Source: Escherichia phage Sa157lw. Taken from it: DNA of 64,000 bases. A model generated the notes under the pieces. That model searched no databases. It was not told the origin of the DNA and saw only the letters and a list, made by a program, of their open reading frames with translations. Made by a program: the position numbers and the translations under genes. Below, one piece after another: positions 54,184-55,611 of this stretch. Positions within the stretch are counted from its first letter, which is position 1; every line of letters starts with the position of its first letter. Where the stretch lies: sequence record OK322699.1; one strand, written 5' to 3'.

Positions 54184-55611
54184 TTAGCTGGGGACAAACT
54201 CATTCACAGGGACATGTTCGGGGATTGATAATTCAGGACAAGCAGCTTTCATCGCTTCCAGATATGGCTTGCTCCCCACGATCCAAAACAATGAGTTCTC
54301 ATTAAGCAATTCTGGTTTGTGTTCCTGTATCCATGTCATGACCTTACCTTCATAACGAGGATGCAACTCAATATCCCCCCACTGGTAATCCATGAGGTCG
54401 TTGTAACGAACCCAATTAGTGGTATGAAGATCCCAATGGTGTACCTCAAAGCGAGGAAGCACGATATCCGGCTCGTTCTTTGGCCTGATACCACTTAGGA
54501 GGCCAGCCAACGAAACGCTCTTAGAGGCATGCGGAAGATCCTTCTTACCATACACATAGTCTGGGTTGTCGTGATAGCGACGAGTGAAATCAGTTATGTG
54601 AGGGAGGTTTGCTTGCTTACCGATAATGCGCAAACGACTTTCAATGAAATCTAATCGGTTAGGTCCAATCCCGATCAGATAGACATTCTTCAGATTTGGT
54701 TTCGGATGCATCGCCAAACCTGTCAGGATACTGGTGCACGAATTACAAGAACCAGCAGGAATGATCAGATCAGTGATATGGTCTGGGATATTGGCAACCT
54801 GCTCACCACCCAGCATATGGAATCCAGCAATGCGTTCTGGTGAATGAACGGTATGATCCAATGTAATGCCATATTCCAGATAATACGCCTTTGGATTTAA
54901 TTGTTCAATGAGTTTCTTACAGCGCGGCTGAATGGTGCTATTGTAACCAGATCCAACAAAGTTAAATTCACTACCAAACCATGCTGACATTGAAACCATA
55001 TCATGGTTCATGCATGTGGTTGGTTTAGTGGCACCCAGCACAGTGGTTGTCTTGCCGCCGAAATGCCGTGAGACTGCCGTCGCCATAGGGGACTGCGGAC
55101 TACCAACGACAGTACCATGGATAAGATCTGGGGATCCTCCCGCTTTAAGATGCTCCATCATGAGCCAGATGGCCTGACGGAGTTTGCTGCCATTGATCCC
55201 CTGCTTGCCGTTCTCATAGTGGGACAGGGGCGCAAAGTAATCTTCACGCTTGAACCAAACCTTCTGATCGGTTTCTGGATTGGCGACGAGTTCACACGGG
55301 GTGTGCTTGTAGAGGTAGTCTTCCCAGTGCACCAGATTGCGGTCGAGGGAGAGAGTGGTGAATATAGACTTGCTGTGGTGCTGGGAGATTACACCATTTG
55401 GTAATGGCTGCACAGAACAGAGTTCTTCACAAATTTTCTTTGTGTCGATCGCCTGAGGTATGCCAGCGGCTGACATCTCTTCTTTCAAGGCGGCGGCAGT
55501 CCATTCTTCTAAAGTATCGCGATCGATACCGTCGGGAAAGATAAAGGGGCTGGCGGTTTCTTCGACTGCCTGTTTGGTGTGATCTATAAGTTTCTGAAGT
55601 TTGTCGTTCAT
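54184..55611 (-). CDS. possible PLP-dependent enzyme
   Basis: 475 aa; GINGSKLRQA resembles fold-type II PLP lysine motifs; weak call. Confidence 0.4.
   Translation of the reverse strand: MNDKLQKLIDHTKQAVEETASPFIFPDGIDRDTLEEWTAAALKEEMSAAGIPQAIDTKKICEELCSVQPLPNGVISQHHSKSIFTTLSLDRNLVHWEDYLYKHTPCELVANPETDQKVWFKREDYFAPLSHYENGKQGINGSKLRQAIWLMMEHLKAGGSPDLIHGTVVGSPQSPMATAVSRHFGGKTTTVLGATKPTTCMNHDMVSMSAWFGSEFNFVGSGYNSTIQPRCKKLIEQLNPKAYYLEYGITLDHTVHSPERIAGFHMLGGEQVANIPDHITDLIIPAGSCNSCTSILTGLAMHPKPNLKNVYLIGIGPNRLDFIESRLRIIGKQANLPHITDFTRRYHDNPDYVYGKKDLPHASKSVSLAGLLSGIRPKNEPDIVLPRFEVHHWDLHTTNWVRYNDLMDYQWGDIELHPRYEGKVMTWIQEHKPELLNENSLFWIVGSKPYLEAMKAACPELSIPEHVPVNEFVPS

What the first reader, a model, noticed from the sequence alone, without database searches (positions are those of the whole stretch)
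54184..55611. Possible PLP-dependent enzyme isolated among late/structural genes
The 475-aa protein has a Ser-Lys segment (GINGSKLRQA) resembling the PLP-lysine motif of fold-type II enzymes. PLP-dependent decarboxylases or lyases finish several DNA base hypermodifications, so this may be the tailoring step for the kinase/transferase candidates. The assignment is weak.
Basis: inference. Interest (0 to 1): 0.5.

Follow-up and report, generated by a model that had tools for sequence, protein, structure and literature searches.

The report
Known PLP decarboxylase for phage DNA

Summary
The 475-aa ORF (54184-55611, minus strand) and its GINGSKLRQA segment are real. The window is a ViI-like Kuttervirus, and the exact protein is GenBank AYC62474.1 of Escherichia phage vB_EcoM_Sa157lw, labelled "hypothetical". 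Residues 81-474 are 92% identical and syntenic to ViI gp226. That enzyme was purified and shown to bind PLP and to decarboxylate O-serinyl-thymidine in DNA to 5-NeOmdU (PMC8989533). An AlphaFold model (pLDDT 87.6) matches fold-type II PLP enzymes. The partner genes are all in the window: two 5-hmdU DNA kinases, the serine:DNA transferase and the dUMP hydroxymethylase. Three side observations are not described in the papers I read. Residues 3-80 form an optional, hypervariable N-terminal cassette that is 0-78 aa long in close relatives. A conserved leader hairpin masks the ribosome-binding site. The gene sits in a 5-kb mosaic patch of an otherwise about 99% ViI-identical genome.

The parts
54184..55611 (-). 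Whole CDS, 475 aa plus stop: ortholog of ViI gp226, the PLP-dependent O-serinyl-thymidine (DNA) decarboxylase. Identical to GenBank AYC62474.1 (Escherichia phage vB_EcoM_Sa157lw).
54187..55371 (-). Catalytic core, aa 81-475, fold-type II PLP fold. It is 92% identical to ViI gp226 aa 30-423 and up to 98% identical to other Kuttervirus orthologs. pLDDT is above 90 except for a family-variable loop at about aa 350-390.
55372..55605 (-). Optional hypervariable N-terminal cassette, aa 3-80. The model shows three helices at moderate confidence. Close relatives have 0-58 aa here, and the flanks are conserved.
55171..55200 (-). GINGSKLRQA motif, aa 138-147. The K143 codon is at 55183-55185. K143 is the predicted internal-aldimine (Schiff-base) lysine.
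54739..54753 (-). G287-S288-C289-N290-S291 loop (G287 and N290 invariant). It aligns with the glycine-rich segment of ACC deaminase and is the predicted PLP-phosphate binding loop.
   Evidence: alignment to 1f2d; the role is inferred
54343..54354 (-). Y420-E421-G422-K423 of the invariant HPxYEGK motif, aligned to DPVYEGK of ACC deaminase.
55611..55665 (-). Leader hairpin. The 9-bp perfect arms are CTCCTGTAG (55650-55658) and CTACAGGAG (55619-55627), and the 3' arm contains the Shine-Dalgarno AGGAG. Energy is -20.3 kcal/mol, z = -4.07.
43322..44557 (-). Pathway partner: amino acid:DNA transferase (Pfam PF18724), 99.8% identical to ViI gp247 (serine:DNA transferase).
45100..46014 (-). Pathway partner: 5-hmdU DNA kinase 2 (PF18747), 98.7% identical to ViI gp243.
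609..1271 (+). Pathway partner: 5-hmdU DNA kinase (PF18748), 99.5% identical to ViI gp67.
1271..2308 (+). Pathway partner: thyA-like gene, 99.4% identical to ViI Vi01_060c. It is taken to be the dUMP hydroxymethylase that supplies 5-hmdU.
   Evidence: the role is taken from PMC8989533/PMC5889632 and was not tested here

Best explanation
The ORF encodes the Kuttervirus ortholog of ViI gp226, a fold-type II PLP-dependent decarboxylase that works on polymeric DNA. The pathway runs in four steps. (1) The thyA-like enzyme makes 5-hmdUMP, which is incorporated into DNA in place of some T. (2) The two 5-hmdU DNA kinases phosphorylate the hydroxymethyl group. (3) The gp247-type amino acid:DNA transferase replaces the phosphate with serine through its side-chain oxygen, giving O-serinyl-thymidine with a free alpha-amine. 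(4) This enzyme finishes the modification. It holds PLP as an internal aldimine on K143, exchanges that bond for the serine alpha-amine, removes the carboxylate as CO2, reprotonates C-alpha and releases 5-(2-aminoethoxy)methyl-dU (5-NeOmdU). That base protects the phage DNA from host restriction enzymes. What is shown here: orthology, synteny, the fold, the conserved lysine and motifs, and the presence of all partner genes. What is shown in the literature for the ortholog: PLP binding and decarboxylation of O-SerT DNA. What is inferred: the role of K143 (not mutated in the 2021 paper that I read), the roles of the G-S-x-N-S loop and Y420/E421, and that this particular protein is active.
For: The protein is 92% identical over 394 aa to ViI gp226 (YP_004327553 = Vi01_182, orf00226), and K143 aligns with ViI K92. 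The gene order is the same as in ViI: tail-needle-knob-like gene, Vi01_181 homolog, this gene, Vi01_183 homolog, then the polymerase. Pfam PALP gives E=3.6e-7. The family profile hits ACC deaminase (1rqx, 1f2d) and D-cysteine desulfhydrase (4d8t) at about E=1e-5, with the lysine aligned to their PLP lysine and HPxYEGK aligned to DPVYEGK. The AF2 model has pLDDT 87.6 and pTM 0.79. Its top 50 Foldseek PDB hits are all fold-type II PLP enzymes (4d8t E=5e-10, 1tzk, 1j0a), with target-normalised TM about 0.67. Thirty-four residues, including K143, are invariant across 67 homologs. hhalign to M6 gp52 (E=1e-4) puts its K36 on K143. The partner genes are present at 98.7-99.8% identity to ViI's. Natural fusions of this PLP domain with the amino acid:DNA transferase domain exist in both orders. 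The biochemistry of gp226 is in PMC8989533 and PMC5889632.
Against: Nothing measured here contradicts this explanation. There are four caveats. The Pfam score is below the gathering cut-off (30.2 vs 35 bits). NCBIfam has no model for the family, and a single-sequence search of the PDB finds nothing. The core differs from ViI gp226 at 8% of positions, and the 80-aa N-terminus is unrelated to ViI's 29 aa, so activity of this exact variant is extrapolated. The Asn of the S-N-Q segment of ACC deaminase is an invariant Pro here (S171-P172-Q173), so cofactor contacts are not simply those of ACC deaminase.
Confidence: 0.93

Rival explanations
1. The protein is a metabolic enzyme acting on free amino acids (threonine or serine ammonia-lyase, ACC deaminase or D-cysteine desulfhydrase), as most database records label its relatives.
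For: Relatives are annotated 'threonine ammonia lyase', 'threonine dehydratase' or 'PLP-dependent lyase/thiolase'. The nearest solved folds are D-cysteine desulfhydrase and ACC deaminase.
Against: Those labels are transferred names, not tested functions. Identity to the solved enzymes is only 13-18%, and NCBIfam assigns no name. The 92%-identical ortholog was shown biochemically to decarboxylate a DNA-bound amino acid. The family is fused to amino acid:DNA transferase domains and travels with 5-hmdU kinases.
Confidence: 0.03
2. The protein has the same fold and chemistry, but the diverged core (8%) and the unique 78-aa N-terminal cassette give this phage's enzyme a changed substrate, product or an extra role, so that its DNA carries something other than 5-NeOmdU.
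For: The gene sits in a 5-kb mosaic patch that is 86-92% identical to ViI, while the flanks are 98.5-99.4% identical. The N-terminal cassette has no close match in the phage collection.
Against: The transferase that chooses the amino acid is 99.8% identical to ViI's. All 34 family-invariant residues are kept. The core is 97-98% identical to orthologs in many ordinary Kutterviruses that have no cassette at all, so the cassette is not needed for catalysis.
Confidence: 0.04
3. The gene is a decaying or inactive copy.
For: The adjacent ART-like gene is split by a 1-nt deletion. One related locus (L025) has its ortholog's ORF stopping at 241 aa.
Against: The ORF is intact, with a good SD sequence and all invariant residues, and the structure prediction is confident.
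Confidence: 0.01

Closest known systems
Salmonella phage ViI (Vi01) gp226, YP_004327553: PLP-dependent decarboxylase of O-serinyl-thymidine in DNA (Lee et al. 2018, 2021; PMC5889632, PMC8989533)
   Same: 92% identity over the 394-aa core. Same neighbours and orientation, identical leader and start, the same proposed PLP lysine (K92 = K143), and the same partner genes at 98.7-99.8% identity.
   Different: The N-terminal segment is 78 aa here and 27 aa in ViI, and the two are unrelated in sequence. The core has 8% substitutions, because the gene lies in a recombinant patch.
Pseudomonas phage M6 gp52, YP_001294560: PLP-dependent decarboxylase of C-alpha-glycinyl-thymidine in DNA
   Same: Same chemistry on a DNA-bound amino acid. 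It shares the KRED..APL...SK.R motif, with K36 aligned to K143.
   Different: It is only a distant relative: hhalign E=1e-4 with probability 56%, and BLASTP is not significant. It is 278 aa, much shorter. Its substrate comes from glycine after a radical-SAM isomerisation, and its product is 5-NedU.
ACC deaminase / D-cysteine desulfhydrase branch of fold-type II PLP enzymes (PDB 1f2d, 1rqx, 1tzk, 4d8t, 1j0a)
   Same: The overall fold matches (Foldseek E down to 5e-10, target-normalised TM about 0.67). The PLP lysine position and the C-terminal YEGK motif also match.
   Different: Identity is 13-18%. S-N-Q becomes S-P-Q. There is an extra, poorly predicted insertion at about aa 350-390, plus the N-terminal tail. 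The reaction is decarboxylation on DNA, not deamination or beta-elimination of a free amino acid. From my own knowledge, PLP decarboxylases are usually fold type I or III, so a fold-type II decarboxylase is unusual, but this is already implicit in the 2021 paper.
Threonine/serine dehydratases (PDB 1pwh, 9d2q, 8zkv), the name most databases give to relatives
   Same: Fold-type II PLP fold.
   Different: These are weaker structural matches than the ACC deaminase group, with no sequence-level family match. The name is a misannotation given the ortholog's tested function.

Membership tests
ViI gp226-type DNA O-serinyl-thymidine decarboxylase | Orthology to the characterised protein (high identity over the catalytic core, same genomic position) | tested here: met
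   92% identity over 394 aa. The same flanking genes are present in window and ViI. The two proteins fall in the same 90% cluster.
ViI gp226-type DNA O-serinyl-thymidine decarboxylase | Candidate Schiff-base lysine (ViI K92) conserved | tested here: met
   K143 aligns with K92 and is invariant in 67 homologs.
ViI gp226-type DNA O-serinyl-thymidine decarboxylase | Same genome encodes a 5-hmdU DNA kinase, an amino acid:DNA transferase and a dUMP hydroxymethylase | tested here: met
   PF18748 at 609-1271, PF18747 at 45100-46014 and PF18724 at 43322-44557. The thyA-like gene at 1271-2308 is 99.4% identical to ViI's.
ViI gp226-type DNA O-serinyl-thymidine decarboxylase | Binds PLP (yellow protein, 410-425 nm absorbance) | not testable with these tools
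   Shown for ViI gp226 in PMC8989533. It is extrapolated to this protein.
ViI gp226-type DNA O-serinyl-thymidine decarboxylase | Converts O-SerT in DNA to 5-NeOmdU with loss of CO2 | not testable with these tools
   Shown for ViI gp226, including isotope labelling. It is extrapolated to this protein.
Fold-type II PLP enzymes (Pfam PF00291, PALP) | Pfam score at or above the gathering cut-off | tested here: not met
   30.2 bits against a cut-off of 35, E=3.6e-7, with only profile positions 6-202 of 295 matched. The precomputed Pfam column does list PF00291 for many cluster relatives.
Fold-type II PLP enzymes (Pfam PF00291, PALP) | Tryptophan-synthase-beta-like two-domain fold | tested here: met
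   The AF2 model has pLDDT 87.6. All of the top 50 Foldseek PDB hits are fold-type II PLP enzymes with probability 1.00.
Fold-type II PLP enzymes (Pfam PF00291, PALP) | Cofactor lysine at the conserved position, and a glycine-rich phosphate loop | tested here: met
   The profile alignment to 1rqx/1f2d puts K143 on the GGNK lysine and the PAGSCNS segment on the corresponding loop region. G287 and N290 are invariant. The geometry in the model was not inspected.
ACC deaminase / D-cysteine desulfhydrase | Sequence membership and active-site set (S-N-Q segment, YEGK) | tested here: inconclusive
   The profile E-value is about 1e-5, over the N-terminal half only. YEGK is kept, but S-N-Q is S-P-Q. 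NCBIfam finds no family. This group is best treated as the nearest structural relative, not as the family of this protein.
Threonine ammonia-lyase / dehydratase (the database label) | Significant match to a curated threonine dehydratase model | tested here: not met
   NCBIfam gives 0 families. Structural matches to dehydratases rank below the ACC deaminase group.

The most novel reading that the evidence does not exclude
The sharply bounded, optional and hypervariable N-terminal cassette is not junk. It is 0 to 78 aa long in phages whose leader and catalytic core are otherwise near-identical, and it is built from short recurring modules such as SVQP[LMI] and PY[IV]P. On this reading it is a fast-evolving functional appendage of the DNA decarboxylase. 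It might be a docking tail that recruits the enzyme to the transferase, kinases or replisome; natural fusions place the transferase domain exactly at this end in P0088. Alternatively it might be a surface under diversifying pressure from a host defence that senses or inhibits the modification machinery. Expression could additionally be gated by the conserved hairpin that masks the ribosome-binding site.
Probability: 0.2. Interest if true: 0.45.

Novelty: already known. Interest (0 to 1): 0.15.

Why it matters
The practical value is annotation. This protein is deposited as "hypothetical", and its relatives are widely mislabelled "threonine ammonia lyase/dehydratase". It should be called the PLP-dependent O-serinyl-thymidine (DNA) decarboxylase of the 5-NeOmdU pathway. 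The window carries the ViI pathway genes apart from gp160, so this biocontrol phage (Sa157lw) almost certainly has restriction-resistant, hypermodified DNA, which its own paper does not mention. Scientifically, nothing new follows for the enzyme's function. What remains open for the family is a solved structure with DNA, mutagenesis of the lysine, how a fold-type II scaffold is steered to decarboxylation, and what the variable N-terminal tail and leader hairpin do.

Tried and rejected
- A single-sequence phmmer search against the PDB gave only chance hits with E>0.2. The family profile was needed.
- NCBIfam has no matching model.
- PHROGs places the core in phrog_3650, 'unknown function'. The N-terminal 82 aa alone hit nothing credible in PHROGs (E>=0.09).
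- BLASTP against M6 gp52 was not significant. Only the profile comparison aligned the two proteins.
- My first alignment (A1) used wrong minus-strand coordinates: it dropped Met1 and kept the stop codon, which shifted numbering by one. I redid it as A2, and only A2 numbering is used in this report.
- tblastn of the N-terminal cassette found it only at the 5' ends of gp226 orthologs, at 34-68% identity over parts of it. It is therefore not a separate gene elsewhere, and it is not a known domain.
- The QP[LMIV] motif occurs in 8 of 32 extensions against a shuffle mean of 1.1. I do not count this as independent enrichment, because the sequences are related.
- I considered whether the leader hairpin is a terminator or overlaps a promoter. 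The consensus scan flags neither there, and no T-run follows the stem.
- I considered a diversity-generating retroelement as the source of the N-terminal variability and rejected it on the sequence. The variants differ by large indels and unalignable replacements, not by adenine-specific substitutions.

Full report
OBSERVATION. The ORF exists exactly as described: 54184..55611 on the minus strand, ATG start, 475 aa. GINGSKLRQA occupies aa 138-147 with the lysine at position 143. The start codon has an AGGAG Shine-Dalgarno 7 nt upstream. The 95-aa ORF on the opposite strand (55117-55404) lies wholly inside the gene, and I take it to be spurious.

WHAT THE WINDOW IS. Megablast and tblastn place the window in the Ackermannviridae, genus Kuttervirus. 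Against Salmonella phage ViI (Vi01, NC_015296), the DNA polymerase and rIIA are 100% identical at the protein level. The DNA is 99.4% identical over window 38572-52800. The exact 475-aa protein is on record as AYC62474.1, 'hypothetical protein vBEcoMSa157lw_00186' of Escherichia phage vB_EcoM_Sa157lw. The paper on that phage says nothing about PLP or DNA hypermodification.

WHAT THE GENE IS. Four lines of evidence converge.
- Sequence families. Pfam PALP (PF00291) is hit at E=3.6e-7 but at 30.2 bits, under the 35-bit cut-off, and only for aa 102-327. PHROGs puts aa 80-475 in phrog_3650, 'unknown function'. NCBIfam has nothing.
- Orthology. ViI gp226 (YP_004327553 = Vi01_182, 'orf00226') is 92% identical over 394 aa (window aa 81-474 against ViI aa 30-423). 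Window K143 aligns exactly with ViI K92. The flanking genes are the same in both phages.
- Homolog conservation and PDB profile search. A 67-sequence alignment of homologs down to 42% identity has 34 invariant residues, including K143, S171-P172-Q173, G287, N290 and Y420-E421-x-K423. Its profile hits ACC deaminase (1rqx, 1f2d, 1j0e) and D-cysteine desulfhydrase (4d8t) at about E=1e-5. In those alignments G-I-N-G-S-K aligns to G-G-N-K, the PLP lysine, and HPxYEGK aligns to DPVYEGK.
- Predicted structure. An AlphaFold2 model built on that alignment has mean pLDDT 87.6 and pTM 0.79, with pLDDT above 90 for nearly all of aa 80-350 and 390-470. Its 50 best Foldseek matches in the PDB are all fold-type II PLP enzymes, led by D-cysteine desulfhydrase 4d8t (E=5e-10), ACC deaminase 1tzk and 1rqx, and the ACC-deaminase homologue 1j0a.

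WHAT IS KNOWN ABOUT THE ORTHOLOG. Lee et al. 2018 (PMC5889632) showed that lysates expressing ViI gp67, gp160, gp226, gp243 and gp247 together convert 5-hmdU DNA to 5-NeOmdU. Lee et al. 2021 (PMC8989533) purified gp226 and reported four results.
- The protein is yellow and absorbs at 410-425 nm.
- Omitting it leaves a product 44 u heavier.
- The pure enzyme converts O-serinyl-thymidine in DNA into the 301-u nucleoside 5-NeOmdU.
- With labelled serine, exactly one carbon is lost.
They also modelled gp226 on 1j0a and named K92 as the probable aldimine lysine. Mutagenesis of the lysine is not reported in the section I read. A 2026 paper still lists PLP-dependent decarboxylases among the tailoring enzymes of this framework and adds nothing on gp226.

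THE REST OF THE PATHWAY IS IN THE WINDOW.
- HMUDK_HMUD1 kinase at 609-1271, 99.5% identical to gp67.
- thyA-like hydroxymethylase at 1271-2308, 99.4% identical.
- HMUD2 kinase at 45100-46014, 98.7% identical to gp243.
- Amino acid:DNA transferase PF18724 at 43322-44557, 99.8% identical to gp247.
Independent of the literature, family members occur fused to the PF18724 transferase domain in both orders: P0084 is PLP-AADT and P0088 is AADT-PLP. The second characterised DNA-adduct decarboxylase, M6 gp52, is only distantly related (hhalign E=1e-4; BLASTP not significant). It shares the KRED..APL...SK.R signature, and its K36 falls on K143.

MECHANISM. Step status is marked in brackets.
- 5-hmdU is incorporated into DNA, phosphorylated, and then serine is attached through its oxygen [literature, for ViI].
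- PLP is held on K143 as an internal aldimine [inferred from alignment and invariance].
- Transaldimination to the free alpha-amine of the DNA-bound serine, loss of CO2, reprotonation, and release of 5-NeOmdU follow [reaction shown for the ortholog; the individual chemical steps follow general PLP chemistry].
- The G287-S-C-N290-S loop is probably the phosphate cradle. Y420/E421 probably correspond to the active-site Tyr/Glu of ACC deaminase [inference and my recollection of that enzyme].
- The invariant Pro in place of the Asn of S-N-Q, and the poorly predicted insertion at about aa 350-390, are family-specific. They may relate to accepting a DNA-borne substrate [speculation].

RIVALS. The 'threonine ammonia lyase/dehydratase' label carried by most relatives is a transferred name. 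Identity to any such enzyme is 10-15%, no curated model matches, and the ortholog's tested activity is different. A changed specificity in this phage is unlikely for three reasons: the transferase that selects serine is 99.8% identical to ViI's, all invariant residues are kept, and the core is 97-98% identical to orthologs in many ordinary Kutterviruses. A pseudogene reading has nothing in its favour beyond a damaged neighbour gene.

WHAT IS NOT IN THE PAPERS I READ (side findings).
- N-terminal cassette. The 70-bp leader, the SD, the ATG and the first two and a half codons (ATG AAC GA) are essentially identical in the window, ViI and SeF3a. The sequences then become unalignable until the core starts at K(T/S)IF. 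Across 25 related loci that share this leader, the intervening segment is 0 aa (L004-6, L011, L019, L024, L025; proteins of 397-401 aa where intact, with cores up to 98% identical to the window), or 13, 21, 26-27, 44 or 58 aa, and 78 aa in the window. More distant homologs mostly start 4-10 aa before the core. The window's cassette is a patchwork of modules seen separately in other phages. It is modelled as three helices at pLDDT about 66-78, joined by disordered linkers. It is therefore optional for catalysis, and its role is unknown.
- Leader hairpin. The leader folds into a hairpin (55611-55665, -20.3 kcal/mol, z = -4.07) whose 3' arm contains the SD. Serratia and Erwinia phage orthologs have a different leader sequence that also pairs a CTCC arm with AGGAG. 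This suggests conserved translational masking, possibly of the kind known in T4 (my own knowledge). No promoter or terminator consensus is found there.
- Mosaic patch. The gene lies in a roughly 5-kb patch (52.8-57.7 kb) that is 86-92% identical to ViI, with unalignable pieces, inside 98.5-99.4% identical flanks.
- Split neighbour. The adjacent ART-like gene (homolog of Vi01_183) is split by a 1-nt deletion near 53981.

VERDICT. The feature is an already known enzyme, the ortholog of a biochemically characterised protein, and the exact sequence is already in GenBank. Interest is low (0.15). The residual novelty lies in the optional hypervariable N-terminal cassette and the SD-masking leader. 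I rate these as a 0.2-probability lead of moderate interest.

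Noticed in passing
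window 55372-55605 (-), aa 3-80 of the PLP enzyme: This is a sharply bounded, optional, hypervariable N-terminal cassette. The leader and first two and a half codons and the catalytic core are near-identical among Kutterviruses, but the segment between them is 0, 13, 21, 26-27, 44, 58 or (here) 78 aa and mostly unalignable. It is built from short recurring modules (MNxKxQKL..EExASP, GIDRDxLEE..ALKEEM, SVQP[LMI], GVISQHH).
   Followed up: partly
window 55611-55665 (-): A leader hairpin (9-bp perfect arms CTCCTGTAG/CTACAGGAG, -20.3 kcal/mol, z = -4.07) sequesters the Shine-Dalgarno of the PLP gene. It is identical in all Kuttervirus loci. Serratia and Erwinia phage loci (L020, L022, L023) have a different leader sequence that also masks the SD.
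   Followed up: partly
window 53696-54144 (-), deletion near 53981: The homolog of ViI Vi01_183 gives a weak ART-PolyVal/DUF3990 Pfam hit and is annotated 'ADP-ribose transferase' in SeF3a. Here it is split into two ORFs (87 and 84 aa) by a single-base deletion relative to both ViI and SeF3a. This is either a pseudogene or a sequencing error.
   Followed up: partly
window 52800-57700; also 3309-5336, 10194-11682, 20590-22205: These are mosaic patches. Most of the window is 96-99.5% identical to ViI, but these stretches are only 84-92% identical, with unalignable pieces at 52801-53175 and 55330-55849. The dUTPase-like Vi01_058 homolog (2874-3428) is only 63% identical at the protein level.
   Followed up: partly
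proteins P0084, P0088 (also P0116, P0120): These are natural fusion proteins of about 750-800 aa that join this PLP domain to the amino acid:DNA transferase domain PF18724, in both orders (PLP-AADT and AADT-PLP). P0116 and P0120 have extra parts with no Pfam match.
   Followed up: partly
L025 (IMG/VR UViG_2974574446); hit H66 Klebsiella phage TTM-TASP117; hit H56 Dickeya phage XF4: Three relatives have a disturbed ortholog. In L025 the ORF stops at 241 aa. In TTM-TASP117 the match is in 3 pieces spread over 1754 nt, which suggests an insertion in the gene. In XF4 a homing endonuclease (F-LimX) is annotated under the match.
   Followed up: no
window 55681-56382 (-): The upstream neighbour (233 aa, Vi01_181 homolog, 85% identical to ViI) has a weak, sub-threshold Pfam hit to NDUS4 (E=3e-4, 21 bits against a cut-off of 31.9). 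One relative annotates it 'putative ETC complex 1 subunit'. Its C-terminal part is Pro/Lys-rich.
   Followed up: no
window 55093-55101 (-), aa 171-173: The invariant S-P-Q of this family aligns with the S-N-Q segment of ACC deaminase. The Asn is replaced by Pro in all 67 homologs, a family-specific change in the predicted cofactor pocket.
   Followed up: no
window 57263-57285 (-): A strong terminator-like hairpin (9 pairs, 6 of them GC, followed by a T-run) lies just upstream of the minus-strand gene run 57215->53696. It suggests that the PLP gene is transcribed with the tail-needle-knob-like gene and its neighbours.
   Followed up: no
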